Positions 24,108 to 62,859 of a stretch of 64,000 bases of DNA are shown here, one piece after another. The first letter of the stretch is position 1. Every line of letters begins with the position of its first letter. The notes under the pieces are model-generated. The model was not told where the DNA came from. It searched no databases and was given only the letters and a program-made list of their open reading frames with translations. This DNA comes from Naegleria gruberi (Eukaryota), in assembly GCA_000004985.1 (NCBI GenBank), contig GG738873.1, one strand, 5' to 3'. Position numbers and translations under genes: made by a program.

Positions 24108-24180
24108 CGCCCACCGTGGGGGTCGAACCCACGACCACAAGGTTAAGAGCCTTGCGCTCTACCGACTGAGCTAGACGGGC
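24108..24180 (-). tRNA. tRNA-Lys (anticodon CUU)
   Basis: Reverse complement: GCCCGTCTAGCTCAGTCGGTAGAGCGCAAGGCTCTTAACCTTGTGGTCGTGGGTTCGACCCCCACGGTGGGCG. The cloverleaf is complete. The anticodon loop is CTCTTAA and the T-loop is GGTTCGA. It is near-identical in architecture to canonical eukaryotic tRNA-Lys-CTT. Confidence 0.9.
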
Positions 24181-24887: not shown

Positions 24888-24958
24888 CTCGAGTGCCGGG
24901 AATTGAACCCGGGTCGCCAGAGTGACAGTCTGGAATGCTACCACTATACCACACCCGA
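24888..24958 (-). tRNA. tRNA-Asp (anticodon GUC)
   Basis: Reverse complement: TCGGGTGTGGTATAGTGGTAGCATTCCAGACTGTCACTCTGGCGACCCGGGTTCAATTCCCGGCACTCGAG. The anticodon stem is CCAGA/TCTGG with loop CTGTCAC. The T-arm is CCGGG-TTCAATT-CCCGG. Confidence 0.9.
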
Positions 24959-25112: not shown

Positions 25113-28100
25113 TTACTTGGATTTTTTCTTTGATGTGGTGGTACTAGTGGATGAAGGGGTAGTTTGTGGAGGTGGATTGATAAGATTGGATAAAATTTGT
25201 TGGTCTTCCTTTAAGAGATTTAAAATTTCTACAGGTGGTTTCTTAGAGAACGCTTGTCCATTTCCCATAGATTGTTGTAAATTCCATAATTTCATTGCTT
25301 CTTGTTCACCTTGTTTTAATTCTCTCTCGACAGCAACAGCTCTTCCTGTAAAATGTTCAAACCATTGTTCAGATTCCTTGACTTTTGGATCATTTTCACC
25401 ATACTTTTCTTTTAAGATCAAGTAATTCTTTCTCTCAAAAGTGACAGCATTCTTGTATTGTCTGAGGAAGTTGTAGGTCATGGCAATGGCATGGAGAGTG
25501 GTTGCTGATTGATCAGAATTTTCACCTAGAGTTGCATTATAAATTCTTAAACATTCGTGCAAGTACTTGAGAGATCTTTGCATGTCTCCCATATCTTGAT
25601 ACATCATGGCAATATTGAGCATGATGTGGGCAAGATCTGGATGATCAAATCCGCAGCACAAAACATGAATATATCTAGCTCTCAAGAAGTGTTTCAAAGC
25701 AAACTCAGCTTGTCCAACATTGAAACATAATAAACCTAAGAGTGAGTGAATTTGAGAAATGGTTGCACTGTCCAATCCCATAACTCTTCTGGAAATTAAT
25801 AAGGCGTTATGTTGATGTAAGAAAGATTGAGGTAAATCGGAGGCATTAAATAAAATGGTGGCAAGGAAACTGAAACAGGTGGCTACTTCGTTATTCATTG
25901 GGCCCTTAACTTGTTGGAACATGATAATGGCTTGTGAGAGGAATTCAAAGGCCATTTCAAAATTTCCTTTAGTGAGTTGTTGTCTACCAACATCCAAGAG
26001 ACTGTGTGCAGTCTTTGATCTTGGTGTACTGTGTTTGACAACAGGTTCAAGGGAAAGAATATCATTTTGGTTGAAAGGATTAGCAGTATTGAATTGGTAT
26101 TCTCTCAAGAGAATTTGAAGACCAATCTTCATACAGAAACTTCTAACAGTAGCAATAGTCTTGAATTTAGTGATAAAATCATCTTCTAATTCAAATCTGT
26201 AATGAGTCTTGACACGTTCCTTAATGAGGGAGAAGAGGGTAGCTTGAGTAATGTCAGTCTCTTCGAGAGCCTTCTTATCCTTCTTGTTTGGTTCATGTTC
26301 ATCAACATTGGTACCAAAGATGCAACACAAGAATTTGGAAATAAAGGTTGCCAAATTGGAATCTTCAACACTTCTCAAATACTTGTTATAGATGTGTTTG
26401 GCTGCTCTTGTAATCATTTCTTGCTTACACATCATTATAAGATGAGGAACAGAATGTTCCTTGGCAAGTTCAGCAATCTTACCTAGATATCTCATATTGA
26501 TACCTCTTTCATGCATGGCATCAGTGAGAGTTCTACCATCAAATGGATTTTCTTCTCTGAGCTTGAATGATTGAACAAACTTTGGAAGGAGGAATTCGAG
26601 GAGGAATTTACCCAATTTTTGAACCTCTTGAATATCTTGATCAATAACTTCTTGAGAACCTCCCAACTTGGTGTTAGAGTGAATATCAGTATTGAATGCA
26701 ATAACCAATTCATCCTTCTTTGTTTCTTCCTTCTTTTCCTCAGTTTCTTCCTTCTTTTCTTGTTGTTTACGTTTCTTTTGAGTAGTGACATAACTTTGAA
26801 TCAATTCTGGTCTGAAAATGGCAATCTTATTTTCAAGGAAATTGGTGTCTCTTGGAGTAATACTGATCAAATCCAAAACATAGAAACGACCATCTGAACC
26901 AACAATACCCTTGCATTCGGATGGACACAAAATGGTATGTTCCTTTCCACTTTCATCGATAATGGTATGTTCCTTAATGTGGAGCTTTTCAGCAGCTTCC
27001 TTCATGAGAGAGTGGTACTTTGGATCTGTGACAAATGATTTTCCTTCATCAATAGAACCATAGACATGTTTAGATCCTTGATCACCTTGCAAAATACCTG
27101 GAATAATACTTTGAGCGACAACTCTGTAACCTCTATAGTCAACAATTGCAGATGCAAGAGTGTGAACACCAGGAACATCAGCTTCATTGAAAGCAATAAC
27201 ACCCTTGAGGTCATTATTGGCATTTTCATAAGCATATTGATCCATATCATTTTCATCCTTTGGTTCATCAGTATTAATTGAAAAACTAAAGAAGATATTG
27301 TTTTGAATATAGACGTGGGATGATTTTTTGTCAGTTGGATTGATTGGTGAGAGGCTCTTATCAACAACTGCCTTGGCACCTTTAACAGCAGCATCAACAA
27401 AATCACAATGAATCTTGAAAAGAGTTCTATCTCTAATCAATCTTTCATCCATAGCTCCTGAAGGGAGCTCCTTACAATTTTGATATTCTTCATTCCATTC
27501 TCTTTGTTGAATTCTTGGATCAGTTCCCAACATGGTAAAGAATGATTCTTCAGCTCTATTTGGATCATATTCGTGTTTTTCCTCAATATTAATCCACTTT
27601 CTGACATGGAAAGGAACTGGTGTGACCTCAAATGGATGCTTCTTAATTCTGGAACTCAAGAGTTTTGGGAAAGTGGCTCTGAACAATGGAGAAATGTCAC
27701 AAATAAGACCAAGAAGTGTTTGATTCTTGTGTGGCTTGCTGGAAGGTAATGGATTGAACTTGATACCCTTTGTAGCATTCACATAGAATCCAGAAGGTGT
27801 GGCAGTAATGTGGAAAATTGCATTTTCCAAAGTTTCAATTTGCAAGTAGAACAAGTCACCCTTGATTTTTCTGTGTTCTGGAACAGGATTCCATGCAGAG
27901 AAGGTAATACTCTTGACACATTTTGGAAGTTCAGTATTAGAAAGCATGATGAGAGGTTCAAGAGAGCCAATTTTGAATGAATCGGCATCATATAAATTCT
28001 TTGTGTTAAATTCTTCTGGTGTTTGTGGCAATTCGACAACGCTAATCTTGTTTGTAAGATTTGGTTTCTTTTCATCGGAATTACCTTCATTGCCATTTTC

Positions 28101-28876
28101 TTCTTCATTCATTACCACAGTCTTTAATTCAACACGATCAATCTTTGAAGAAGATGTTGAAACCTTCTTCTTCTTTTTCTTTTTAGTTTCCCCAGCTGAT
28201 GAATCTGTATTTGTTGATTGTGAAGATTGATGGGATGGCAGTGTTTGACCTTCTAATTGTAAAAATTCCAAATCACAATTTAAAGCATGACCCAAATCGT
28301 TATACAGTTCAGAATTCACAGATGAGAAGAATGAAGGGAAGGAATGTTGGTTGTTTTTGGTTGCAGAATGGACAATGCCAGTAGAAAGATACAAATCGTC
28401 AATTTTAGAATAAAGTAATTCTCTCAAACGATATACGTGAGTTCTAGCTGATTTGTTATCATATGGCAGTGTGTGCATATTAATTTCTACTCCATCTTTA
28501 ATTTCAGGATAATCAGCAATGTCGGAAAAGTCATCCAAAGTCTTTCCTTTCACTGTGAATTCATAACTAGTAATGTAACTGGTCTCTACACATTCTGCTA
28601 AAAGTTGTTTAATTTCCAATGTAGAGTCACCTTTAGTAATTTGGAGTTTCAATTTACTACCAGTCAAAGTTTTGATGAAAACAGAGAAAACTTCTGCTTC
28701 CATAAAGGGTTGCTCTTGTTCTTGTTGTTCCTTTTCCATTTGATGCTCCACTTCTTGAACATATTGTTCCAAGTATTCATCCAAGTCTACACAATGTTGT
28801 CATGACAATCAAAAAATAAAAACAACCTACCTGCTTGAACCTTTTCTTCCAAGTGCATTGAAAAATCAAAAGACAT
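25113..28876 (-). CDS. CLU: CLU / clustered mitochondria (TIF31-like) protein homologue, 2 exons
   Basis: Exon structure: join(28876..28831, 28786..25113). A 46-nt first exon encodes MSFDFSMHLEEKVQA, followed by a 44-nt intron 28787..28830 (GTAGGT...TGTGTAG). The long ORF DLDEYLEQYVQEVEHQ... has no in-frame ATG before residue ~17. It carries a CLU central domain (GSDGRFYVLDLISITPRD) and C-terminal TPR-like repeats (LAHIMLNIAMMYQDMGDMQRSLKYLHECLRIY). The size is 1220+ aa with a Lys/Ser-rich tail. Confidence 0.85.
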
Positions 28877-30786
28877 TTTGATGACGAATTATTTCTATAC
28901 TATTAGTTGAATGTATTTGAATCCGAAAGAACCCGACAATAATAAGGATGATAATGATGAAAAACCCAACAAAAAGTAATATGGTATTTTTTAGGGTTTC
29001 AAAAATCAACCAGAATGTGTGGTGTGTTTTGTTGAATTTTTTTTTCTTTGAGGTTTTTTGCTTCAACTAAAATTTTCTCTATCAATTTGACCGACATGAT
29101 TTTGATAGAATCGAGCAGCAGAAGATATGAATTGCTGCTTCACACACTCAAGATGAGCCAATCGGATAGATGCTTGAGAGTAATCGGCACTAATTGATTT
29201 TCAAGTGGTTGCCTAAAGGGATTATTCAAGTCAATCAATTTGATAATAGTGATAAATAATGATAATTGTGAATAAACCTGAATTGTAGTCTGTCATTTTG
29301 AATATCATTGGATTTGCAATGGTATTTAATATTCACAGTTTAAGGGTAGTCAAAAATGCATTATTGAAAAATTGTCCTCGTTTCATTGAGCTCCTGATAA
29401 CAATAGATTCTTTATACATAACAAACTTGAATACATCTCTGTGGAGAAATGGCCATTTTCACATATCTTCTCTTATATCTGTATTTGTAAAGTTGCTTAT
29501 TCCCTGCTGTTGACTTTAAGTGTTCGAAAAGGTATAACATTTTTCCAAAATTAAGATAACATGTCACCTTAGTCACTCAATATGCATATTATTTGACTTT
29601 TTTCAAAGAGATTTGAGCTCAAACTGTAAGATCTGAAAATACAGGATTCTCAGTGCTAACCATGATTTTGCTTTTCCATCTTAGAGATCTATCATTGAAT
29701 CTCCTAGCAGTTTGATAATTACAACATCTGTTCGTCTCTTTACCAAAACTTTCTCAACCAACATTGAATTAATACAATGCCACAACAGTTTAACATGACC
29801 AATTTATTAGATATTGAACAGCACATCCTGACTATGGAGTGGGTTAAAAAGACCATGGATTCTTAATGAATTGGATCTTATTGTTTTGTATTGTTAGTCA
29901 TAACCAAAGAATCACTTGCATTTTTCATTCAACTTTTTGCAGTTCTCATCCAGCTGTCACCCTCAAAACAAACCCATCACACCGAAAAAGAACCTGACAG
30001 AATAGCAAACACTGCTTGGTTGAATGCAAACCAAACAACATATTTTCTGCTTGATTAGCTAGTAATCTCCCTCACTACCAGTCATCAAACGCTGAACCTC
30101 TTCAATTTCTTCTTCTTCATTCACAAACAACATCAATAGCAATCTGAGTAAGTAGGAGAATCATTCCCAAAGCTCTCAGTTATTGCATTTGGGTTGAAGA
30201 TTCTCAGCAAGAAACTACGTCGAAAAAAAATCGCAACCGCCCTTTTACCGCCAACTCTCTTTCCAAACAACAACATACTTATTGTGTGTTCAATACTACT
30301 AGACTTCTTGGTACATTACGCAGCGAGAATCATCATTAGTAATAGACAATAATACATTCTAACAACAAGAGTAGTACATCAAGAAGAAGAAGAAGAATTT
30401 TTTCAATTCACTCTAGTAGAAATATTTGAAAACGTTTAATAGCCTGTGGCGATACAACTAAACCTTTCCCTTTTTCATAGTCAAAAGTTCAACCTCGGTT
30501 GTGTGGCTGTTCCGAAGATTCTCATCCAAGATCATCATCATCACTAGTAGTATCATCTTTTGAGGATCCATCATCCCCTTCATATCTTTATATTTATTCT
30601 GTTTATAGATATTGTTTCATACTGTACATATATTCCAATTCTAATTATCTGGCACGATCAGCATTGAACAAGTTAATTGATTATCTAAACTACCATTATC
30701 CCTTTTCCATTTAATCTATATCATCAACAAGATTATATATAACTGAAAAGAATCATTTCAGAAAAAAGTTTAAACATCTCTCGACT

Positions 30787-30844
30787 GTAAGTACAAGTTA
30801 CAATATTTATTCATGATCATTTATTTCAATTTATTGAATCATAG
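30787..30844 (+). other. Candidate 5'-UTR intron immediately upstream of the ATG at 30848
   Basis: The span has a GTAAGT donor at 30787 and an AT-rich body ending ...ttgaatcatag|aatATG. It is 58 nt long, which fits the local intron size range. Confidence 0.3.
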
Positions 30845-30847
30845 AAT

Positions 30848-31609
30848 ATGACAAGCCTGATTGATACTGTTGAACAAGTTGTCTCCCCAACATCAACAAC
30901 ATCTCCAATGATTAACATACACTCAGCGTGTACTTCCTCCTGTTCCTTTGATTGCACAGCAGAAAGAGAAACAACATGCTATGAAGATGCCTGCTCTGAA
31001 CATAGCTGTGGTGATCACCACCACGAAGAAACAAGAGAGCATGCACCAGCTACAAATATGCCTCTTGTAGTAGGCCCTGCTCTAGTTTCCCCGACTGCTG
31101 TTGCCAATGGCTGCAAATCGTGTTATACTAGACCACCACATTTGAGAGCCAAGTGTTGTGGACCTGGTAAGGCAAAGCTCTTTAAGAAAAAGTCAAAGGT
31201 TTTGGGAGCTGTATTGGCAGAGAGTGGAATTCTTTCTGATTTGTTAGAGAAGGAAAAACAAGAAAAGGATTCCCTCTCGAATACTGGTTCATACATTCAC
31301 CTCACTCAATTTACATCTGTTGTTGGTGAAGAAAACAATTGTACAAAAGAAGTACTCACCACTACTTCACATAAGGAACACGTAGACGAGACATTGATAG
31401 AACAAGCCAACCATAGCAGCTTACCTCCACTGGTAGATGTTTCCACACATCAAGAAGCCATTGAAAAACCTTCGAGAATGAGATCCTTTTTGAGTGGATT
31501 ATTACAGAGAAAACAAAAGGTTATGGTAACTCTGGGTTTTTCTGGTGATTCCTCAACAACAAGTATGGAAACAACTTCTGATTCTTCACTGACGACAACA
31601 GAAAACTAG
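30848..31609 (+). CDS. Hypothetical Cys/His-rich protein (253 aa)
   Basis: The ORF runs from ATG 30848 to TAG 31607-31609. The N-terminal half is Cys/His-rich (CTSSCSFDCTAERETTCYEDACSEHSCGDHHHEE...CKSCYTRPPHLRAKCCGPGK). The C-terminal half is Ser/Thr-rich. No family was recognised. Confidence 0.5.
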   Translation: MTSLIDTVEQVVSPTSTTSPMINIHSACTSSCSFDCTAERETTCYEDACSEHSCGDHHHEETREHAPATNMPLVVGPALVSPTAVANGCKSCYTRPPHLRAKCCGPGKAKLFKKKSKVLGAVLAESGILSDLLEKEKQEKDSLSNTGSYIHLTQFTSVVGEENNCTKEVLTTTSHKEHVDETLIEQANHSSLPPLVDVSTHQEAIEKPSRMRSFLSGLLQRKQKVMVTLGFSGDSSTTSMETTSDSSLTTTEN

Positions 31610-43405: not shown

Positions 43406-44178
43406 ATGTCCAAAACTTTAATCTCTCTCTTCCTCGTTATTGCTTTTGCTTTGGTTGTTGCATGCGTGGATGTTACTCCTGAAGAATTGAAAGCAATATT
43501 AACCAACGTCCCAAAGGCCAAGGTCACTAACTATGCTCAATACATGAATGATGCCATGGATGAAGGTGATATTGATACCTGTTGTGAAATTGCTGCTTTC
43601 ATTGCTCAAGTAGGTCATGAAAGTGGTGATTTGAATTGGTTTGTTGAATTTGCCTCTGGTTCTGCTTATGAAGGTAGAAAGGATTTGGGTAATACTGTCA
43701 AGGGTGATGGTGTTAGAGTAAGTGTTATCTTTTAACTGTTTGACTCTTTACACTCTATTCAATTATTATCAATATTATTAATGTATTATTAATCAATCGA
43801 ATAATAATATTATAGTATAAGGGTAGAGGTCCAATTCAAATTACTGGTCGTGCTAATTATCGTGCTGCTGGTAAGGCTTTGGGTGTTGATTTGGAAAATA
43901 ATCCACTCCTTGCTCAAGAACCAGTCATTGGTTTCAAGACTGCTGTTTGTAAGTTGTTTTTTCGCTAAATTTCAGTTTGTTGTAATATTAATATTAATAT
44001 CATTATTAATATCTCTCGTTTTAAATAGGGTTCTGGAATACTAGAAGTTTGAACAAGTATGCTGACTGTTCTCAAGCTAACTTTGATATCATTACCAAGA
44101 GAATCAATGGTGGTTTCAATGGTAAGGCTGACAGAGATGCCAAGTTTGCTAAGGCCAAGAAGGTTTTGAAGTGTTAAA
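43406..44178 (+). CDS. Secreted glycoside hydrolase family 19 (chitinase/lysozyme-like) protein, 3 exons
   Basis: Exon structure: join(43406..43717, 43816..43948, 44030..44178). The introns are 98 and 81 nt, GTAAGT...TAG, and about 80% A+T. The signal peptide is [19 protein letters not shown]. The GH19 signatures are [12 protein letters not shown] and, across intron 1, GDGVR|[15 protein letters not shown], then ...TAV|WFWNTR. The protein is 185 aa. Confidence 0.85.
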
Positions 44179-44446
44179 TAAATCATTTTTAATTCTTTCA
44201 AAATAATTGAAAATGCATATCTGTTTCACAAAATGCATTCCATTTCAATCAATTAGGAATTGGAGTTGCATTCTTAATCATAAATGCAAAAACAAACAGC
44301 ATGCATCCAGTTTGGTACATCACACTCTTAATAATTGAGAGTAATTAATCAAGAAGAAATGTTTAATGATGGAAGTAAGGTTCTGCAAACTTTCAATTAA
44401 TTTTTTTTAGTTTTGAAAAAAAGATTTAAAGGCGGGATTAAATAGT

Positions 44447-44827
44447 ATGCAAAAGGTTTTCAAGCGAGTTGAAAAATTCATCTCAACACCCCATTCCGAT
44501 GATGATCGCTCAATGGTGGATACGGTCACTGAGAAATTGTATGAAGAATTGAAAAAGTGTTTGGAAGTGGTGGCGAAAACAAATGGTGATGATGGATTAA
44601 AGTTTGTAAAATTAATGATAATTTCAATGATTGCTCATCAGAGTGGTGATGGAAATAATCAGAAGAATAATAATAGTAATGGAAGGAAGGAATTAATAGG
44701 GAATTTAATGACGGAATTTGTGAAGAATTGTTGTAGGATTGAATTGAGAAGTGTAGGTAAAACACTCTTATTTGATGTGATGATAATATTTGGTTGGTTA
44801 ATAATATTAATTGGAAAAGAGGATTGA
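44447..44827 (+). CDS. Small hypothetical protein with a C-terminal hydrophobic segment (126 aa)
   Basis: The ORF runs from ATG 44447 to TGA 44825-44827. It carries an Asn-rich stretch and ends in LLFDVMIIFGWLIILIGKED. No family was recognised. It may be independent, or part of the downstream large gene through an unresolved splice. Confidence 0.35.
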   Translation: MQKVFKRVEKFISTPHSDDDRSMVDTVTEKLYEELKKCLEVVAKTNGDDGLKFVKLMIISMIAHQSGDGNNQKNNNSNGRKELIGNLMTEFVKNCCRIELRSVGKTLLFDVMIIFGWLIILIGKED

Positions 44828-44976: not shown

Positions 44977-47900
44977 ATGAGTAAGTGAGTTGGAGTTTAA
45001 ATTTATTGACTTGCAAAGTTCCAATTATTTATTATCATTATATGTGTATTTTCAAAATTTAATAGAGACAGATGCGAGTGTAAATATAATTCCAAGAGAT
45101 TTGAAAAGTAGTTTTCAATTGTTGGAACAGTATTGTGAAAAATTTCACAATGCAGAACTGATTAATATATTGTACAAATTAAAAAAAATAGCTGAAGAAC
45201 AAGAGTTGATAGAGTATTCACATTTGACAATTATTGAAACAGCCAAGATGGAGTTAGAGTGGAAGGAAATGAATGACAGGAAATCATCCTCTCAGAGGAA
45301 AATGGAAATACTTTCATCCTTATTTTCCAATGTAAATAGTAATTATTCGGACGATTCATTTGAGGAATTATTTCAAACTTTTGAAAAGATATATAGACAA
45401 GCAATTAGAAAAATAACAAAGAGTCAACCCACGAAAATTAATGAAAATTTGAAAAAGGGAATACTGACATTTGATTTCATTCACAAAATGGCTCAACATT
45501 CCATTCCATTTATCTCGGTAAATCAAGGCGAACTAAATTTATCCAAAGCAGAGGTAAACCTAGAGTTTGAAGAAGAGGATGAGATCAATAATTCTGATTT
45601 TATGACCAATCTCGGTGATACAACTCTACAGGTGTTATCAAATATAGAATCATACGTTGGAACGTCATTTCTCAACTATGAGAAAATATCTCCTGCCATG
45701 AGTGCTCACTTAAAACACAAATTTCTTTCCCAAGTTAGTGAAGCTTTAAAATATGAAAAGGTCAACCCTACACTTGAAAAGACACTTCCCTCAATAAGAG
45801 AGAAAACAGTGAAGAAGATACAGGACTCATTCCATGTCGATCCAACACTGAGCTTTGTTTTTGGAACACCCTCGACCGACAAGGATGGCAAGTTAATTAC
45901 AAATAACAGTAGGAAAAATTTATTCTTAAAGAGAGACGATGTGAACACTTACTTGGAACTAGTGGACAATACCTTTATACAGGAGAATTACTATTCTATT
46001 GAAAATGATTCGATTATTGGAGAAAGCAGTAAGGAAGATTTGCTTGATTGTTGGAGAGCCGAATTCAAAACACGGCAACTCCATAGTATACCAGCAATCC
46101 AAATGAAAGACGTACTCTTCACTTCCTCCTTATTTATGGATCCTTTGAATATTGAAATGCTCATATCCTCGAACCTTGAACCAAAAAATCCAATTCTCCA
46201 ATTAATTCAAGCTCAAAGTATATCAACACATGAGGATTACATTGGAAAATTGAAAGGATTATTCAAATATAACAACTTACAGTGGATGGGAACATATCAT
46301 TCACAGTGCCTACGTGATTTTTTTGGAACTGACTTGATTGATGTTACTAATGTGAATAATGCACGATCTCTCAGCATGTCCATAGATTTGGATAATCTCT
46401 CAAGTATTGCATACTCATTTCTCAAAATCTCTGAAAATCACCGTAGCTTGTGCAATCAGGTATTTGAAGAAAATAATTCGAGCGCTCTATGGAGAGACTT
46501 TTACCTTGATAATTACCAAGTTCTAAACCCTATGAAAGATCTATCAGAATCCATTCTAGAAAATAGTATCCAGCACACAACTTCATTGAGAATTTTAAAA
46601 GAGATTGGAACCCACCAAAGTAATAATGAAGTGAGCAGTAATTGTGATTGGATTTCTCTAATGAAGTCTATAGCCAACAAACTCCATTTTAACAAATCTA
46701 TATTCTGTAACTTTGTGGATGAATTGGATAAAGCAACAGTGAAGTCTAATTTTTTGGAATTATCATCAATAATAATGAAATTCTATTACTCAATTCATCA
46801 AGTAATGACAGAATTAGTTGAGATTTTGCAAACACAATCCATAAGCGAATTATTCATTGTTTTATTGTTAATATCCTCCATTGGAAACAAAACATACTCT
46901 ATTATTGATTTCAGCTTTTCTAATGCGCTGAAATCTCGATATTTTCATACTCGGTTTGTTGAATTGATACTGCATCTGCTGCACCAACAAGATGATGAGT
47001 GCAAATTCCAATCAATAGCTAAGGACATTCAAATGTTATCATTTCTGAATGTATGCTTGATTGGATTTAGAGATGGTCTCTTCCTTTCCAAGATTAAAAT
47101 TGCTAGAGCCATTTCTATGGAACTAATTTCCAATACTCAATCAATCAATAGATCATATTTAGAATCTCCAATTTTAAATATTTGCAAAATACGAATAGGA
47201 AATAATTACATGCTCTCAAATAGAACCACTGCAAGGTTACTAGTTTATAATCACTTGAAAATTGTGAATGAAAAGTCAAAAGAAATGAAATCCATTGAAG
47301 ACAAACTACTTTTGGAAAATATGTTTGTGGAAAGCAAAACTCATGAATCTAAAACTACGAAAAGCGACAAGAACACTTTAAAAGGCGTAAATTTGATATC
47401 CATCAAGGATCAACAAGTTGTGAAAAACTCTTACAAATTTTTGGATGATCAGCTTAAAGAAATTATTCATGAAATGCGACCAAAATCACAAAAAAGTCAC
47501 CAACCGATTCTAAATGATGAGAAGGATGACTTTGAAGACATTCTGGATAGTTTATCATCAGTTTGTGAAGTTATTATTGTACCCTCTGAAGATTCTGAGA
47601 CTCTGACACGCTCTCCATCAAAAGTGAAGAAAATGCTATTGGAATCATTGCCCTCATTACTTTTTGAGATGTTACACACTTTTCCAGACTCTGTAAATCA
47701 TTGGCTTTCCTTCATTGTGCAACAGACCATGTCATTTCTTAAAACTTTAGAGTGTTGTCAAATAATTTCACTCAAATTCAAAATTCATGGAGAAAAGTCT
47801 GTACAATTAACCAGTAGAAAGGTTAGCTTTGTGGACATTTCCATGTTCTTGGCCATGCAATGCGCAAACGCTTTATTTCAAACCATACGGAAGAATATTG

Positions 47901-48859
47901 AACCTTTTAGCAAGATTTTATTCGAAATGTGCCTCATTGTCGAAAACTTTCTCATTCCAGATAATGAAGCCAACAATGCCTCCCAAAACATTCAATCCTT
48001 GAAGGCCAAACTAGAGAAATACGCTCTCACAATCCAAGAAATACTGAAACCAGACTCTCATTACATAATTCAATCAATAAGAAATCAAGTTGGTCAAGAA
48101 GAATTCATTGATATTATCAATCATTTACAAGTGGAAAATGAGGAAGGCCTTTCCCAAATATTGGAACATGAAATATTATCCTTCACCAAACAACACATTA
48201 TACAGGAACGTTTATTGGACTATCACTTGTGTATGAATCAATTTTATGGAGAATATTTGGAAAATATGATTCCTCTTGGTGAAACTATAGAGTATTTGAA
48301 ACTTTCAATATACGAAACAAATATTCCAATGCCAAATCGTCATTATTGGAGAGAACAGCTCTTTTTGAGTTTGGATTTTGAAGAGTACGCAGAAATACTC
48401 CAACAAGTACTTGATAGCTGTCCTAAGGATTTGGATGAGAATGCAGAATCGAGTACATTAATTCTACTCCAACAATTAATTCTCGTGTTGGGTAATTATC
48501 CATTTCACAAGCTACTCACATCTACTGAGAATGATAGTATTCCCTATCTTCATCCGATTATTCATTCGTCAGTGATATCAAAAATTGCCTCTGATCCTCT
48601 CATTCAACAAGAAATTACAAACATGAAACCTTCACTCAAAGTATTGGTGGGAAAGTTATTTGATGCCTTGATTAGAAAGTGTTGTCAAGCCAAAATGGAA
48701 TTCAACATGAACTATATCAAATCTGTCAAGCACGAATTAATCAAATCCTTACATGAATCACACAATTTAGCTGAAAACTATCGTGCATCCAATATGGTTC
48801 TATCAGATAAGTTACACAATTTTCTAATTAAAAACTATTCAAGAGGAGGAGAGGAATAA
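44977..48859 (+). CDS. Large hypothetical protein (~1270 aa), start codon probably split from the body by an intron
   Basis: The long ORF is open from 44990 and ends at TAA 48857-48859, but its first in-frame ATG is only at 45248. The sequence ttattggATGA|gtaagt at 44977-44986 and the acceptor aatttaatag|AG at 45064-65 allow join(44977..44980, 45066..48859). That gives MK|TDASVNIIPRDLKSSFQLLEQ... with an 85-nt AT-rich intron. The protein is largely helical-looking (HEAT/ARM-like). No family was recognised. Confidence 0.65.
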
Positions 48860-49265: not shown

Positions 49266-50264
49266 TTAATAGGAAACCATTTTAGAAAGACCTTGTTGCA
49301 AATAATGTGGATCATTGCCTCTGTAAAGTTGAAGCAAGTCCTCCTTAACAGGGCTCTTCAAAGGGAACAGTCTCTTTCTCTTTGACTTTCTGACATCAGT
49401 CGAGAGAGCAGAGAGAGCTTCCAATTTTTGAATGAGACCATTATTTTCATCTTGTCTTGAAAGGATGGCTTGCAAAACGCAAGGATAAGATGTTGATTCC
49501 TCCTCTTCATAAACAATAGAATCATTCGATGAAGTATTGATTTTTGCTGATTCCTTCTTGATGGCACCTTCATTTGAAGGGAGAGCATCCTCATCTTCCT
49601 TGATATCTGTAGATTGCAATTTGTTTTCCTTACTCGTTCCTTTGTGGATTCTGTGGGCCAAGCTCGATGAGCTTCCACTGCTTCCAGAGGAAGCATAACC
49701 ATTAAATGCAGTTTCTTGCATTTCTAAATGAGGTAAAGTATGAGATGATGCTCTGCCAGTATTACCAGATTCATTCAAAGCAGGTGATGAAGTTTCAAAT
49801 GAACGATCGTCAGCAGATTGTTTCTTTGCAACAATTGGCTTTCTATTGCTACTGCTGCTATGATTACTCAGCTTTTCTTCATCACTCTTTTCCTCTTCTT
49901 CCTCCTCCTCTTCTTCTTCTTCAACTTCAATTTCTTCTTCTTCCTCATCTTCATCCTCTTCATCATCAGATGGTACTCTTCTCTTTACACTTGGTTTTGA
50001 CTTTTTTCTCTTTGAGAAGGAGGTAGTCTTTTTCTTTCTCTTTCCTTGTGAACTCTTTGATCCACCTCCTTCTTTCTGTTTACGATGCTTGTACCATAAT
50101 CTGTAGCATCTATCACATAATTCTCCTTGTGACAAGTCTCTTTCAAAGAATGAACAGAGCACATCTACATTCTTTGGGTGGACTTTGTATCTGCAGCTGA
50201 ATATAGTTGGTGGGTGTGTTCGCGAGCACACAACACACATGCGATCTTTATGAGCCTTAGACAT
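49266..50264 (-). CDS. Acidic nuclear-type protein with N-terminal CxxC...CxxC zinc-finger-like module and a poly-Glu tract
   Basis: The ORF runs from ATG 50264-50262 to TAA 49268-49266. The N-terminus reads MSKAHKDRMCVVCSRTHPP...CDRCYRLWYKHRKQ. It is followed by basic KRKKK patches, then EEEEEEIEVEEEEEEEEEEEK encoded by a (GAA/GAG)n simple repeat, and a Ser-rich tail. Confidence 0.65.
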   Translation of the reverse strand: MSKAHKDRMCVVCSRTHPPTIFSCRYKVHPKNVDVLCSFFERDLSQGELCDRCYRLWYKHRKQKEGGGSKSSQGKRKKKTTSFSKRKKSKPSVKRRVPSDDEEDEDEEEEEIEVEEEEEEEEEEEKSDEEKLSNHSSSSNRKPIVAKKQSADDRSFETSSPALNESGNTGRASSHTLPHLEMQETAFNGYASSGSSGSSSSLAHRIHKGTSKENKLQSTDIKEDEDALPSNEGAIKKESAKINTSSNDSIVYEEEESTSYPCVLQAILSRQDENNGLIQKLEALSALSTDVRKSKRKRLFPLKSPVKEDLLQLYRGNDPHYLQQGLSKMVSY

Positions 50265-50759
50265 TGTTATCTATCTGTTCATGACGATGATGATTTTGAT
50301 TTGGTGTTGTATGGAATTGATTTAATGCATTAAACATTGAAATCCATCATTAGAACATTAAAAAGATATGCAATACCTACATGATGATCAATGGTAATAG
50401 TATTAAACAACTTTCTCTCGTAATATACAATAATATCTCTCGAATATAATGCAAAATGCAAATGCTATACAAAAAAATCTATCTACAAATTCTACTTCTT
50501 CTTCAAAAGACGTCTTTCCCTTTGAGTTGTATCAGAGCAATATAACACAATAGCAATCCACTGTATATGAAATGTTACTTGTTCTTCAGCGCGTTTCTAT
50601 CAACGTGTGAGGGAGACTCCAATTGTGTCTTTTTTTTAATGATGATTTTGGCTAATCTGGGATGATTTGGTGTGTACCTCTGAATTGCTGAACAATTTCG
50701 CTGCAAGCGCGCTCTTCTCTCAGCTAAGTTTTTCTCTCGGCGCACCAAGTTGTTGTTGT

Positions 50760-51400
50760 GTTGGAAATGCATTTTGCATGATGGTTGTTGTGTTGATGGC
50801 AAAAAGCATCAATTTACAAACTTACACGGATCGTAAAGTTGTTATAATTAGCCATTTTTAAGACGCTACACGCACCTTTATCTCCTAAAGATTTCATCGA
50901 AAATTTGATGGCTGCAGTTAGACTAGAAATTGGTGCAGCATAATTGTTGCACACAGTTGATATCAGAAAATGCATTCCAGTTGAATGGATAACAAAATGC
51001 ATTTCTTGTAATTTGGATTCTTGGAGAAAGAAAAGTTCTCGGATTGAATTTTGGTCCGGCCTAATTGTTTTGCATGACAGGTTGGAAATTTCAATGGAAA
51101 TAGTGTCGTTTTGAAATTGTTGCTTGCATTTTCAATGCATGACTTTCACTGCATGATAAATATCCATATGCATGATTCGTTCGTCCTCTTCTATATTGTA
51201 TTAATAGCAGTGATGCACTCATTTTGATTATTAAATGGAGTTGGATAATTTGCATTTCAATGGAGAACCAATCAGGTAATCATGCAGGAAATTTGGAAGT
51301 TTTCAGAGTGGTTCACATTGCGAAATATTCTCAATGCATTTCTTAACTGTTGTCATGCATACCAATCTCCAATTCACAATCAACAAACAACAAATGCATG
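50760..51400. promoter_or_regulatory. Cluster of at least 13 TGCAT(G)/AATGCAT motifs in the 1.5-kb intergenic region upstream of the zinc-finger gene
   Basis: Hand count of TGCAT on the top strand within ~640 nt. The starts are near 50767, 50775, 50970, 50996, 51070, 51125, 51135, 51150, 51168, 51250, 51335, 51355 and 51395. Three copies fall within 40 nt (caatgcatgactttcactgcatgataaatatccatatgcatga). The expectation for a 5-mer is under 1. Confidence 0.35.
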
Positions 51401-51761
51401 ACGATTTTTGAATTGTGGCCAGACCTCGCTTATGGGAAATTCCAATACCGTATCCTTTAGTTTCTTTTTTGGCAAAATATTCAAAATAGTTGTCAAAAAT
51501 CAATTTCGGCAAATGACCTACAATATAATCAATCTCTCATGTGTCTCACTGTTAATTTGGAAAACTAAAAGCACAACGCGTAACCATGTGAAATCGTTAG
51601 TATTAATCAAAACAATCATACAAAAACGAAGAGCCTGGTATTATTATCTTTCTCACTTTTAAATGATTTATGTTTAATGTTGTCCTTGTCATAAATGTAA
51701 TTTTAAATGTTCGGAAAAGATTTATTTACATTTCAACAGAAAACAATCATCATTAAAAAAC

Positions 51762-54700
51762 CTAGTTGGTTGTTGCTTGAGGTTTTTGCATTTCAACATC
51801 TCTGGTCACTGAAACAGTTGAAGCATTGGATGCAGCCTTGTTAGAAGTACACTTCCACAAAACAATAACAACAATCAATGCAATCACCAACACTACAATA
51901 ATTGCAAAACCAACCACTGATGCAATAATTGCTCCAATATCTCCTGGAGTTAACGTAACACCAGTATTATCAGCATTCAAAGCTCCGGTTGCTTGGGCTT
52001 GCAATGGTTCGGGAATGAAGATGTGAGTTGACAATTTGGTGAACATGACTCTTTCCTTCTCAGTTTCAAAGTTTGGATAAATAGGAAGCTTAATCTTCAT
52101 AGTTTGTGGATTTTCGAGGACAACCTTGTGCTTATTAAGAGAAACACTATATGAAAGCATTGGAAGAATGATATTATTCCAGTTGGAGTGTTCTTCTTGT
52201 GTCTTGATACTGTTAATGAACTTGACAAATGAGTTTGCATTTCCAATATAGTGTTGATTGAAAGTATATTGAGCATCATTGACAAGGACACAGAGGTAAA
52301 TATTGTGTTCCTTTGTCAAATCAGAGAATTCCAATTCATCAGTATATTTTCCTTCATTATTGGTAAACTTGATTGAAACAGTAATGTTTTCATTCTTTAG
52401 TTCACTAAAGTGAATAGTTCCAGAGACTGTGTCTTGTAAGTTTCTCATGACAGCCCTAGATTCTACACGCATATAGACGGTTCCTTCCATGAGACCAGTA
52501 TTGGATTGCTTTGAGAAGCCAAAAACATTGGTTCTACTCGACTTGGAAGTGTAGAGACTTTCCAATTTGTTTTCTTCAGACTGCAACTTATAGCCAATAT
52601 AACCTTGAGTAGAATTTTCCATACCAATAACCATACCTAGACTACCGAAAGAGTTTCCTCTGTCTATGGCCAAACCAAATGGTGAAAGAGTTGAGTATTT
52701 GAATGACGTGTCAGCAGTTAAATCTAATTGATAGATTTCTAATGGTTCAATAAGGAGTTCTAATTCTGCAAATGATCCCGACACTTCAAGGTAAATAACC
52801 TTTGGAATGGAATTCAATGAGTTTCCAGTCTTTGACAAGGTGACAGCACTGGTCATGGCAATCATTGATGCAGTACTAAATGATGAGCCAGTCAACATTT
52901 TAATGGTAACATCAGCATTCTTAGGTAAGATTGGTGTTACGACAAATGAATGGAGGGATTGAGAAATTCCAGTATTTGGAACATACATGATAGCAGTTCT
53001 GGATTGAACACCATCAAAGACATGTCTAACAGTCTTACCACTGTTACCCTTATAGACTGGGAAGACAGTAAGTGTAGAATCGCTTCCAGTATAAGTGAGG
53101 AATAATGGGAATGAATTGGCTTTAACTTCCAAAAGATTTCCAACAAGAGTTCCATCATTAAGAGTGAGTTGACCAACTGATAAGCTAAATGACAAATAGT
53201 CTGGAACAATAGAAGGAATATCAATCAAAATGAGACCTGATCTAATCTTTACAGATTTTCCGAATTGAATAGAACTTCTATAATAATTGAAATTGACTGA
53301 AACTTGCTCTGTTTCTTCCTTACTGATAATGACCTTAACAATGTTAGTATTTTCAGCGACAAGATTTTGGAATGGAATTTGAACACTTTCTTGAGAAATT
53401 TCATAAGAAACAGAACCATAAGAAATTTGACATGCAACGGTAAAGCCCAAATTCAAAGTAATGCCATCATAGTAATCAAAGTTATCGGCGGCAATTGAGA
53501 TTTGTCTGGCAACAATTGTTGAATTATCAGTGATAGTTTCAACAATATTCTGCATTTCACTCACATCATAGATATAATCAATAGCCATAGTGTTTTCAAT
53601 GGATCTTCTTGACTTTTTCAAGCAGATACCACACAGTGAGCTAATGGCAGTTTCAGAAACAATTGGAAAGTCGTAAGTATAACCGTCCCATATGGTATAA
53701 TCATACAATTCAATTTCATCAATACCAACTTCACCATCAATACCCCAATAGACATTCATACCAAGTTTACAACCTGATTTTGGATTAGTTTGAGTTTTGA
53801 CATTAATGTATGGATTAATCTTAAAAATAATTGGGAATAATTCATAGAATGTAATATATAGAGTTGGTTCAAGAGTTGCCTTAGCTTGAGTTTGAAGAGA
53901 AAGATATTCACTCACTCTGAGACCACCACTAACTGATCCACTAGTTGTAGTCTTTTTATGGTTTCCCTCAATATATTCAAAACCTGCAGAGCCAGATCTT
54001 GTATAATCGCTTGTAAAGCTGACAGATGCACTGGCCTCCAAGTAGATTTTCAAACCGACTCCCATTCCAATTGCCATCTCAACAGGCAAAGGTCCAACAG
54101 CAAAGGCAGCAGTGTAAAAGTCCTTCTTCTTCATCAACTCAAATTCTCTTTCATATTTGCCTGTGGCCGTAACCTTCAAAGTTGGAAGTGTAACTCTCAA
54201 GGCATAAAAACCAGTACCTCTAGCAGTGTCTAGAATTTCCCATGGCATGTCAGTTTCAATGTATATATAATAACCAGCATAGAAACTAAAGAAACAATTG
54301 GTACATTCAAAGGTAAGGAATGAATAGGACATTGTAACTGACGATTGATCATAGGTAGGAATATTATTTGTGTAGAGAATCTTTCCCTTGCTATCTCTTT
54401 TCACATTCCAACCAATTTCAAATGCCTTATCATTGCTAGCAGAGCCAGAGAATCTTCCATTCTTGGCAACATAACCTAGTGGTCTACTCTTTAATAATTT
54501 GAGTTTTGAAAAGACTTGGAGGAGGGATAATTTACCAGTTTCTAATTGGAAATAAGTAATGCCATTCTCCTTGTTGTAAATCAACTCTGATTTGGTGACT
54601 AATCTGTAGAGAACTTTTTCATCAGTCTCTGCTTGATCATTGAGAGAGTGATCATAACAGGCAAAACTCTTCTTGCTTGAAACAAGCAAATTTCCAACAG

Positions 54701-55118
54701 CAAGATGATTCTTCATCATTTCAACATGATTTGGAACAGAGGCATCTGGTCTAATATACAAAATATTCCTAGTACAACCAATATCCATCACATATGGGTG
54801 ATAGTCAAGATTGTAGGTATCAAAGGCTAAAACAGCATCATACATGAATTGCTCAGAGCTTGGGGTTTCTTCAGTGTAACGAGCATTCCAAGGATTCTTA
54901 GAGGTAAAACGTTGCTGGGCCTTATTAAGATAGGGAATACTTTGAGGATTTCTCTTCGAAATAGATGGTAATGTTCTACCATTCTTGATTCTGAAGAGGA
55001 AATAATCTGAGGGTGTTTCAAAGTTTGGTCGTGTTGTCGTGCTTTCAGCTATTAAGAATCCCACTAAAAAACAAGTTATCCACACAAAGAGGATGGATTT
55101 TAGTAGAAGCCTAATCAT
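51762..55118 (-). CDS. Large type-I membrane protein (1118 aa): signal peptide, ~1040-aa extracellular region, single TM, short cytoplasmic tail
   Basis: The ORF runs from ATG 55118-55116 to TAG 51764-51762. The N-terminus reads MIRLLLKSILFVWITCFLVGFLIAES. The C-terminal TM segment is GAIIASVVGFAIIVVLVIALIVVIVLW, followed by a 30-aa tail. The ectodomain is beta-rich with many N-x-S/T sequons. No family was recognised. Confidence 0.8.
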   Translation of the reverse strand: MIRLLLKSILFVWITCFLVGFLIAESTTTRPNFETPSDYFLFRIKNGRTLPSISKRNPQSIPYLNKAQQRFTSKNPWNARYTEETPSSEQFMYDAVLAFDTYNLDYHPYVMDIGCTRNILYIRPDASVPNHVEMMKNHLAVGNLLVSSKKSFACYDHSLNDQAETDEKVLYRLVTKSELIYNKENGITYFQLETGKLSLLQVFSKLKLLKSRPLGYVAKNGRFSGSASNDKAFEIGWNVKRDSKGKILYTNNIPTYDQSSVTMSYSFLTFECTNCFFSFYAGYYIYIETDMPWEILDTARGTGFYALRVTLPTLKVTATGKYEREFELMKKKDFYTAAFAVGPLPVEMAIGMGVGLKIYLEASASVSFTSDYTRSGSAGFEYIEGNHKKTTTSGSVSGGLRVSEYLSLQTQAKATLEPTLYITFYELFPIIFKINPYINVKTQTNPKSGCKLGMNVYWGIDGEVGIDEIELYDYTIWDGYTYDFPIVSETAISSLCGICLKKSRRSIENTMAIDYIYDVSEMQNIVETITDNSTIVARQISIAADNFDYYDGITLNLGFTVACQISYGSVSYEISQESVQIPFQNLVAENTNIVKVIISKEETEQVSVNFNYYRSSIQFGKSVKIRSGLILIDIPSIVPDYLSFSLSVGQLTLNDGTLVGNLLEVKANSFPLFLTYTGSDSTLTVFPVYKGNSGKTVRHVFDGVQSRTAIMYVPNTGISQSLHSFVVTPILPKNADVTIKMLTGSSFSTASMIAMTSAVTLSKTGNSLNSIPKVIYLEVSGSFAELELLIEPLEIYQLDLTADTSFKYSTLSPFGLAIDRGNSFGSLGMVIGMENSTQGYIGYKLQSEENKLESLYTSKSSRTNVFGFSKQSNTGLMEGTVYMRVESRAVMRNLQDTVSGTIHFSELKNENITVSIKFTNNEGKYTDELEFSDLTKEHNIYLCVLVNDAQYTFNQHYIGNANSFVKFINSIKTQEEHSNWNNIILPMLSYSVSLNKHKVVLENPQTMKIKLPIYPNFETEKERVMFTKLSTHIFIPEPLQAQATGALNADNTGVTLTPGDIGAIIASVVGFAIIVVLVIALIVVIVLWKCTSNKAASNASTVSVTRDVEMQKPQATTN

Positions 55119-62767: not shown

Positions 62768-62859
62768 TGATGAGAGTGGGATTTGAACCCACGCCCTTGC
62801 GGAACACGGCATTAAATCATACCTTAACGTGTCGTCTTAGACCACTCGACCATCTCACC
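62768..62859 (-). tRNA. tRNA-Leu (anticodon AAG) with a 12-nt intron after position 37
   Basis: Reverse complement: GGTGAGATGGTCGAGTGGTCTAAGACGACACGTTAAGG[TATGATTTAATG]CCGTGTTCCGCAAGGGCGTGGGTTCAAATCCCACTCTCATCA. The acceptor stem is GGTGAGA/TCTCATC, with one G-U pair. The D-arm is GTC..GAC. The anticodon stem is ACACG/CGTGT with loop TTAAGG^C. It has a long variable arm and the T-arm GTGGG-TTCAAAT-CCCAC. The exon loop is identical to canonical tRNA-Leu-AAG. Confidence 0.8.

What the first reader, a model, noticed from the sequence alone, without database searches (positions are those of the whole stretch)
50760..51400. Dense palindromic ATGCAT / TGCATG motif cluster in the largest intergenic region
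A ~640-nt stretch lies upstream of the acidic zinc-finger gene and downstream of the type-I membrane protein gene. It holds at least 13 copies of TGCAT against fewer than 1 expected. Many sit inside AATGCAT or TGCATGA, and three fall within 40 nt. ATGCAT is palindromic. CATGCATG (the RY element) and UGCAUG (RBFOX) are known protein-binding motifs in other systems. This could be a clustered transcription-factor binding module, an enhancer, or an unannotated non-coding RNA with repeated protein-binding sites.
Basis: seen in the sequence. Interest (0 to 1): 0.55.

Follow-up and report, generated by a model that had tools for sequence, protein, structure and literature searches.

The report
Conserved ATGCAT site cluster upstream of gene
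A real, non-random cluster of about 20 short ATGCAT-type DNA sites lies upstream of a conserved Naegleria gene of unknown function; related amoebae show the same enrichment upstream of the same gene, so it is most likely a bank of binding sites for an unknown transcription regulator.

Summary
The window is Naegleria gruberi. Positions 50760-51400 hold 13 TGCAT on the + strand and 23 on both strands. No 640-bp window in 200 whole-window shuffles exceeds 13, and none of 3,000 local dinucleotide shuffles reaches the observed count.

The sites share a palindromic TGCA core with half-sites TGCATTT or TGCATGA (about WMATGCATKW), and they occur in both orientations.

The cluster lies 0.5-1.14 kb upstream of NAEGRDRAFT_80043, a 332-aa protein with an invariant Cys-rich N-terminal domain found in only about 30 protein clusters. 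The same motif is significantly enriched upstream of its orthologues in N. lovaniensis, Willaertia magna and a Naegleria-like metagenomic contig. There the flanking genes differ and the DNA cannot otherwise be aligned. More distant Acrasis-type relatives lack it.

There is no Rfam hit, no unusual RNA folding, no conserved ORF and no repeat-family signal.

Best reading: a homotypic cluster of binding sites for an unidentified, probably dimeric, DNA-binding factor that controls this gene. The factor, the transcription start and genome-wide specificity remain untested. This is a new example of a known kind of element, of moderate interest.

The parts
50760..51400 (.). Main motif cluster. It has 16 TGCA cores, of which 13 carry at least one TGCAT[TG][TA] half-site, 0.5-1.14 kb upstream of the ATG at 50264.
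   Evidence: 23 TGCAT/ATGCA hits; 0 of 3,000 local shuffles and 0 of 200 whole-window shuffles reach this.
51125..51175 (.). Densest sub-cluster, with four sites in 51 bp (TTGCATTTTCAATGCATGACTTTCACTGCATGAT...ATGCATGA). It includes a 14-bp near-duplicate, TTTCAATGCATGAC / TTTCACTGCATGAT.
   Evidence: D19; period 14, 1.9 copies.
50765..50781 (.). Double site AAATGCATTTTGCATGA, with two TGCA cores 7 bp apart. 16 nt (ATGCAAAATGCATTTC on the gene strand) are identical to a double site upstream of the Willaertia orthologue.
   Evidence: TGCA-W3-TGCA occurs only 3 times in 144 kb, always in these upstream gaps.
50446..50465 (.). Proximal double site ATAATGCAAAATGCAAATGC, about 190 bp upstream of the ATG, again with 7-bp core spacing.
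50323..50332 (.). Proximal full palindromic site TAATGCATTA, about 65 bp upstream of the ATG.
50265..51761 (.). The whole intergenic gap. It holds 21 half-sites (14 per kb, against 0.98 per kb in the rest of the window).
49266..50264 (-). Presumed target gene NAEGRDRAFT_80043. It encodes 332 aa with an invariant Cys-rich N-terminal domain of about 55 aa, basic tracts, an acidic tract and a conserved C-terminal RKSKRK motif.
   Evidence: The annotated protein is 100% identical to the ORF.
51762..55118 (-). Upstream neighbour: a 1,118-aa predicted type-I membrane protein with no homologue found. An AATAAA on its strand at 51726-51721 lies about 40 nt after its stop, so its 3' end probably precedes the cluster (inference).
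44213..44306 (.). Second, smaller cluster of the same motif (3 ATGCAT plus 2 further TGCA cores) between a GH19 gene's stop and the next gene's ATG. It shares AAAATGCATTCC with 50966-50977.
   Evidence: (P about 1e-3 after correcting for windows).
50820..50825 (-). GTAAGT donor-like site. This is speculative: a possible 5'-UTR intron ending at an AG 11 nt before the ATG.
   Evidence: Similar donor-like and acceptor-like sites occur in the orthologous gaps, but about 0.5 are expected by chance per gap.

Best explanation
The region is a homotypic cluster of cis-regulatory DNA sites belonging to the 5' control region of NAEGRDRAFT_80043. Each site is a palindromic TGCA core flanked on one or both sides by the half-site extension TTT or TGA (TGCATTT or TGCATGA; two-sided form about WMATGCATKW). 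That form is expected for a dimeric sequence-specific DNA-binding protein. Many closely spaced sites of mixed quality would recruit several copies of that factor and give strong, cooperative or threshold-like control of transcription of the downstream gene.

Shown here: the cluster is real, it is specific to this gap, the sites are independent of orientation, and the enrichment is conserved upstream of the orthologous gene in Naegleria and Willaertia with turnover of individual sites.

Inferred: that a protein binds the sites, that the effect is on transcription, and that the target is the downstream gene. The factor is unknown. Feedback by the gene's own Cys-rich product is possible but untested.
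For: (1) Non-random local cluster.

(2) In the N. gruberi window the gap is the outlier among 21 ORF-free segments: 18.8 TGCAT per kb, against 0-12 per kb in the other 20 segments (combined about 3 per kb). It holds 8 of the 9 non-ORF TGCATGA/TCATGCA copies.

In both, the densest 640-bp window of the 21-kb locus lies 0.5-1.3 kb upstream of the orthologue, as in N. gruberi.

(4) An unbiased k-mer screen that excludes N. gruberi ranks TGCATTT/AAATGCA first of 3,223 7-mers (21 against 1.6 expected, 5 taxa).

(5) Other intergenic regions of the same loci have 0-3.4 TGCATTT per kb (at most 2 copies each, combined 1.0 and 0.45 per kb), against 3.1 and 7.2 per kb in the gaps (6 and 9 copies).

(6) The half-site test is significant in N. 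gruberi (0/2000), N. lovaniensis (2/2000), Willaertia (0/2000) and L006 (2/2000), with balanced orientation (9/12, 6/5, 5/5, 3/2).

(7) The gaps do not align except at motif-length matches, and the upstream neighbours differ: a membrane protein, a 196-aa protein and a Methyltransf_8 protein. The motif therefore travels with the downstream gene.

(8) The 7-bp double site occurs only in these gaps.

(9) Heterolobosea are reported to keep conventional gene-by-gene transcriptional control (bioRxiv 10.64898/2026.07.29.740908).
Against: There is no direct evidence of protein binding, chromatin accessibility or transcription. The transcription start is unknown. The cluster may lie partly inside a long 5' leader or a 5'-UTR intron.

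The enrichment is absent upstream of the Acrasis-type orthologues (L003, L004, L005), so it is not a universal feature of the gene family. The orthologous clusters are much weaker than the N. gruberi one, and in N. lovaniensis a coding-region window scores nearly as high (10 against 11).

Local micro-duplication contributed to the N. gruberi density. The half-site definition was refined on the same sequences, although avoid that circularity. Genome-wide specificity could not be tested.
Confidence: 0.6

Rival explanations
1. RNA-level element. The cluster is transcribed, either as a long 5' leader of the Cys-rich protein gene or as an independent non-coding RNA. The repeated (U)GCAUG / AUGCAU motifs then act as RNA-binding-protein sites or as upstream AUGs that throttle translation.
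For: Every ATGCAT or TCATGCA carries an ATG. The gap has 36 ATG on the gene strand. Donor-like and acceptor-like sites hint at a 5'-UTR intron and a distant start. In N. gruberi, TGCATGA is 6:2 in favour of the + strand.
Against: Half-site orientation is balanced in all four taxa, and 6:2 is not significant. There is no Rfam family. Folding is no more stable than shuffles on either strand. There is no alignable sequence conservation. RBFOX proteins are, to my knowledge, restricted to animals.
Confidence: 0.15
2. Neutral by-product. Local slippage or micro-duplication of a short AT-rich unit multiplied a chance ATGCAT-containing seed, with no function.
For: There are short near-duplicates inside the cluster: 14-bp units at 51130-51156, 27-bp-spaced copies at 50962-51003, and 7-bp AATGCAA units at 50448-50462.
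Against: Tandem structure accounts for only a few sites; the others sit in unrelated contexts. The same enrichment recurs upstream of orthologues in other genera where the sequence is not alignable, and neutral duplication in one lineage cannot produce that.
Confidence: 0.1
3. Remnant of a dispersed repeat or mobile element carrying ATGCAT-rich sequence.
For: The gap is long for this compact genome. The whole genome could not be searched.
Against: The gap has no match longer than 24 nt elsewhere in the 64-kb window, and its best match is the other motif cluster. No terminal repeats of note were found, and no ORF with coding conservation. The same motif enrichment at the orthologous position in other genera is not expected for an insertion.
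Confidence: 0.05
4. 3'-end or termination element of the upstream membrane-protein gene, or a shared insulator between two tandem genes.
For: The cluster lies downstream of that gene on the same strand. The second cluster (44213-44306) also directly follows a stop codon.
Against: The cluster starts 363 nt past the stop, beyond an AATAAA at 51726-51721. In N. lovaniensis and Willaertia the upstream neighbours are unrelated genes, yet the motif persists with the downstream orthologue.
Confidence: 0.05

Closest known systems
Homotypic clusters of transcription-factor binding sites in promoters and enhancers (described for animals, yeast and plants; e.g. review PMC4621482)
   Same: Many copies of one short motif lie within a few hundred bp of non-coding DNA upstream of a gene, in both orientations. 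The enrichment is conserved across species while individual sites turn over and the DNA does not align.
   Different: No factor is known, and there are no binding or accessibility data. The organism is a heterolobosean, for which I found no characterised cis-element in the searched literature.
Plant RY/Sph element (CATGCATG / CATGCA) bound by B3-domain factors ABI3/VP1, FUS3 and LEC2 (from my own knowledge)
   Same: It shares the CATGCA core: 8 copies of CATGCA/TGCATG in the cluster. RY elements are also often present in several copies in a promoter.
   Different: The full octamer CATGCATG is absent. About half of the sites are AAATGCA / TGCATTT, which lack the leading C. B3 factors belong to the plant lineage, and their presence in Naegleria was not testable here.
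Apicomplexan TGCATGCA motif bound by an ApiAP2 domain (PF14_0633; PMC2965767)
   Same: A TGCA-centred palindromic promoter motif in a protist, conserved across species upstream of related genes.
   Different: TGCATGCA itself does not occur in the cluster. The flanks here are T/A-rich (TTT or TGA) rather than a second GCA.
Fungal APSES factors (Efg1, Sok2, Phd1) with a TGCAT / ATGCAT core, and the animal POU octamer ATGCAAAT (from my own knowledge)
   Same: The core is the same, TGCAT. Two exact octamers (ATGCAAAT / ATTTGCAT) occur at 50454-50461 and 51248-51255.
   Different: As far as I know these factor families are restricted to fungi and to animals respectively. Most sites here do not fit the octamer.
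RBFOX (U)GCAUG RNA elements
   Same: The same hexamer, in six + strand copies.
   Different: RBFOX sites act in RNA and are strand-specific. Here orientation is balanced across taxa, and nothing indicates that the region is a structured or conserved RNA.

Membership tests
Homotypic cluster of transcription-factor binding sites | Significant local over-representation of a single short motif in non-coding DNA | tested here: met
   23 hits against a shuffle maximum of 13; the gap is the outlier among 21 ORF-free segments.
Homotypic cluster of transcription-factor binding sites | Sites occur in both orientations (recognition on duplex DNA) | tested here: met
   forward/reverse 9/12, 6/5, 5/5 and 3/2 in four taxa.
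Homotypic cluster of transcription-factor binding sites | Motif enrichment is conserved at the orthologous gene without alignable sequence (site turnover) | tested here: met
   Significant in N. lovaniensis, Willaertia and L006; absent in Acrasis-type relatives.
Homotypic cluster of transcription-factor binding sites | Occupancy by a sequence-specific factor and an effect on transcription | not testable with these tools
   Needs EMSA or DAP-seq, ATAC-seq and reporter assays.
RY/Sph element - B3 domain system | CATGCATG octamer, or at least a CATGCA core, at the sites | tested here: not met
   there is no CATGCATG in the cluster. CATGCA/TGCATG is present at 8 positions only, and the other sites are AAATGCA-type.
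RY/Sph element - B3 domain system | A B3-domain factor encoded by the organism | not testable with these tools
   The N. gruberi proteome is not searchable here, and the literature searches found nothing.
RBFOX-type (U)GCAUG RNA element | Strand-specific occurrence within a transcribed RNA | tested here: not met
   One search shows balanced orientation. Whether the region is transcribed is unknown.
ApiAP2 TGCATGCA promoter motif | The TGCATGCA octamer | tested here: not met
   none of the six TGCATG is followed by CA; all are followed by A[CT].
Structured non-coding RNA gene | A match to a known RNA family, or folding more stable than shuffled sequence | tested here: not met
   no Rfam match at E<=1; z -1.68 and -1.49 with 20 shuffles.
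Dispersed repeat / mobile element | Further copies elsewhere, terminal repeats, or a transposase ORF | tested here: inconclusive
   none in the 64-kb window or in the related loci. The whole genome is not available.
Zinc-finger or SANT/Myb DNA-binding protein (the downstream gene product) | A significant match to a known DNA-binding domain or fold | tested here: not met

The most novel reading that the evidence does not exclude
The Cys-rich N-terminal module of NAEGRDRAFT_80043 is invariant across Heterolobosea, occurs in only about 30 protein clusters out of 1.84 billion, and has no known fold match. It could be a previously unrecognised DNA-binding domain that recognises the WMATGCATKW palindrome. 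The site cluster upstream of its own gene would then be an autoregulatory switch: a lineage-specific transcription-factor family found together with its cis-element, with further targets such as the cluster at 44213-44306.
Probability: 0.1. Interest if true: 0.65.

Novelty: new member of a known kind. Interest (0 to 1): 0.42.

Why it matters
In the literature I could search, almost nothing is known about cis-regulatory DNA in Naegleria or any other heterolobosean. This group includes the lethal pathogen N. fowleri and a classic model of rapid cell differentiation. A motif that is statistically robust, conserved across genera and tied to one conserved lineage-restricted gene gives a concrete, cheap starting point: pull down the factor, test reporter constructs, and scan the genome for a regulon. 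If the downstream protein proves to bind the motif itself, that would define a new DNA-binding domain family. If not, this remains an ordinary but useful promoter module.

Tried and rejected
(1) Hidden protein-coding gene in the gap. Six-frame peptides of 25 aa or more were compared with the orthologous gaps. The only hit below E=0.001 (25 aa, with a stop in the subject) showed no nucleotide-level conservation. Rejected.

(2) ncRNA. Rfam at gathering threshold and at E<=1, and folding z-scores. Rejected.

(3) Alignable conserved non-coding element. blastn with word size 7 between gaps gave only motif-length matches.

(4) Tandem repeat. TRF finds only a 14-bp unit of 1.9 copies and 7-bp units.

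(5) General intergenic or 3'-end motif. Other intergenic regions of the window, L001, L002 and L004 do not show the enrichment.

(6) Regulon test through the gene next to the second cluster. That large + strand ORF has no detectable orthologue, so the test was not possible.

(8) The look-up of encoding contigs could not return the N. gruberi contig itself, so the public gene models around the gap were not seen.

(9) Literature searches for a Naegleria promoter motif or transcription-factor repertoire found nothing relevant; the hits for TGCATG were primers.

(10) Helical phasing of sites. Spacings are irregular apart from the 7-bp doublets.

Full report
**What the window is.** The 64-kb window has about 35% G+C, is gene-dense, and carries long ORFs with few introns. 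The 1,118-aa ORF at 51762-55118 (-) is 100% identical to a Naegleria gruberi predicted protein. The 332-aa ORF at 49266-50264 (-) is identical to NAEGRDRAFT_80043. Pfam hits elsewhere in the window fit this free-living heterolobosean amoeba: CLU, NHL-EGF receptor kinases, REJ and DUF4116. The finding lies in the 1,497-bp gap 50265-51761. It is 3' of the membrane-protein gene and 5' of NAEGRDRAFT_80043, and both genes are on the - strand.

**Checking the observation.**
- By the window-wide rate, 0.83 + strand copies are expected.
- A stricter control is dinucleotide-preserving shuffles of the region itself. These keep the inflated TG/GC/CA/AT content and give 3.2 +/- 1.6 for the + strand and 6.1 +/- 2.5 for both strands. 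None of 3,000 shuffles reaches the observed values.
- As a scan statistic, the best 640-bp window has 23 hits, the next best real window has 9, and the largest maximum in 200 whole-window shuffles is 13.
- The motif is not over-represented in the window as a whole, so the signal is purely local.
- The only inaccurate detail is 'largest intergenic region'. 28800-30844 is a longer ORF-free stretch.

**Anatomy of the sites.**
- Aligning all TGCA cores in the gap shows two recurring half-site extensions, TGCATTT and TGCATGA. Two-sided sites read about WMATGCATKW, for example AAATGCATTT, TCATGCATTT and AAATGCATGA.
- Compared with 439 background TGCA cores, the position after the core is T in 61% of cases against 27%.
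- The longer form ATGCATGACA recurs in four taxa.
- Spacing is irregular, with one exception: a doublet of cores 7 bp apart (TGCA-W3-TGCA). It occurs only three times in the 144 kb held, twice in this gap and once in the Willaertia gap. Sixteen nucleotides of it are identical between the two genera.
- A few sites arose by micro-duplication. Most sit in unrelated contexts.

**Comparative test.** NAEGRDRAFT_80043 has orthologues in N. lovaniensis, Willaertia magna, Acrasis kona and several metagenomic or SRA contigs. I fetched their loci.
- In both, the densest 640-bp window of the whole 21-kb locus falls 0.5-1.3 kb upstream of the orthologue, as in N. gruberi.
- An unbiased k-mer screen of the six upstream regions other than N. 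gruberi ranks TGCATTT/AAATGCA first of 3,223 7-mers (21 against 1.6 expected).
- Other intergenic regions of the same loci do not share the enrichment. Nor do the 20 other ORF-free segments of the N. gruberi window.
- The half-site test against local shuffles is significant in N. gruberi (0/2000), N. lovaniensis (2/2000), Willaertia (0/2000) and the Naegleria-like contig L006 (2/2000). It is not significant in the Acrasis-type clade (L003, L004, L005).
- The gaps are otherwise unalignable, and the upstream neighbours are unrelated genes. The motif therefore follows the downstream gene, and individual sites turn over.
- Orientation is balanced in every taxon.

**Rivals tested.**
- There is no Rfam family at gathering threshold or at E<=1.
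- Folding energies are within the range of shuffles on both strands.
- There is no conserved ORF.
- There is no tandem array beyond two copies.
- The gap's best match elsewhere in the window is only 24 nt, and that match lies in a second small cluster of the same motif at 44213-44306.
- That second cluster sits between the stop of a three-exon GH19 gene and the next gene's ATG. It suggests the motif is used at more than one locus. The neighbouring large gene has no detectable orthologue, so this could not be tested by comparison.
- A repeat-family origin cannot be formally excluded without the whole genome.

**The downstream gene.**
- Its product has an almost invariant 55-aa N-terminal module (CVVCSRTxPxTIFSCRYKVHxKN...GELCDRCYRLWYKH). 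This is followed by basic and acidic tracts and a conserved C-terminal RKSKRK...SP motif.
- An exhaustive HMMER search finds only 30 representative clusters among 1.84 billion proteins.
- No Pfam family matches.
- A weak similarity to the NCoR/SMRT SANT1 domain (E=0.08) is not confirmed by a profile search (E=1.1).
- The composition suggests a nuclear protein. Calling it a zinc finger or a DNA-binding protein is unproven.

**Interpretation.** The best-supported reading (confidence about 0.6) is a homotypic cluster of binding sites for an unidentified, probably dimeric, DNA-binding factor that forms the upstream control module of NAEGRDRAFT_80043. It is conserved in the Naegleria-Willaertia lineage.
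- Shown: the cluster is non-random, it is specific to this gap, orientation is balanced, and the enrichment is conserved.
- Inferred: protein binding, an effect on transcription, and the identity of the target gene.
- Donor-like and acceptor-like splice sites in several taxa raise the possibility of a 5'-UTR intron. That would place the sites close to the transcription start rather than at a distance. This is weak evidence and needs RNA data.
- Heterolobosea are reported to retain conventional gene-specific transcriptional control (bioRxiv 10.64898/2026.07.29.740908), which makes a promoter module plausible.

**Comparison with known systems.**
- The element works like the homotypic site clusters known from other eukaryotes.
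- It is not a member of the RY/B3 system, because CATGCATG is absent and half the sites lack the C.
- It is not the ApiAP2 TGCATGCA motif, because the octamer is absent (PMC2965767 for that motif).
- It does not fit the RBFOX class, because there is no strand specificity.
- Core resemblance to the fungal APSES and animal POU motifs rests on my own knowledge and is only an analogy.

**Verdict.** The finding is real and biologically meaningful. It is a new example of a known kind of element in a lineage where no such element has been described in the literature I could search. Interest is moderate (0.42). The most novel reading still open is that the orphan Cys-rich domain is itself the factor that binds these sites (probability about 0.1).

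Noticed in passing
window 44213-44306: A second, smaller cluster of the same motif: 3 ATGCAT plus 2 more TGCA cores in 94 bp, with P about 1e-3 after correcting for windows. It lies 36-129 nt after the stop of a GH19 gene and about 140-235 nt before the ATG at 44447 of a large + strand gene. It shares AAAATGCATTCC with 50966-50977.
   Followed up: partly
window 43406-44177 (+): A three-exon gene (introns 43718-43815 and 43949-44028, GTAAGT...AG) encoding a 197-aa secreted glycoside hydrolase family 19 (chitinase class I / lysozyme-like) protein (Pfam E=3e-20).
   Followed up: yes
window 49266-50264 (-): NAEGRDRAFT_80043 carries an invariant 55-aa Cys-rich N-terminal domain found in only about 30 protein clusters out of 1.84 billion. 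It has no Pfam family and no fold match, so it is an unclassified domain largely restricted to Heterolobosea.
   Followed up: partly
window 28800-30844: A 2,045-bp stretch with no convincing ORF between the divergent CLU gene (25113-28784, -) and the ORF at 30848-31609 (+). It is longer than the gap under study and may hold an unannotated intron-rich gene or a large divergent promoter.
   Followed up: partly
window 50820-50825 (-), and L001, L002, L005, L006 upstream gaps: GTAAGT/GTAGGT donor-like sites in the gaps and AG acceptors 1-14 nt before the ATG in several taxa. In L006 three TTGCATTT sites lie 18-58 nt upstream of the donor. This may be a conserved 5'-UTR intron.
   Followed up: partly
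window 51762-55118 (-) and 44990-48859 (+): Two very large ORFs (1,118 aa and about 1,290 aa) have no detectable homologue other than the N. gruberi entries themselves, so they appear to be species-restricted orphan genes.
   Followed up: partly
window 24108-24180, 24888-24958, 62768-62859 (all -): Three tRNA genes found by Rfam.
   Followed up: no
L002 12657-14815 (Willaertia magna): A 2.2-kb divergent intergenic stretch with only 11% G+C, far below the locus mean of 26%.
   Followed up: no
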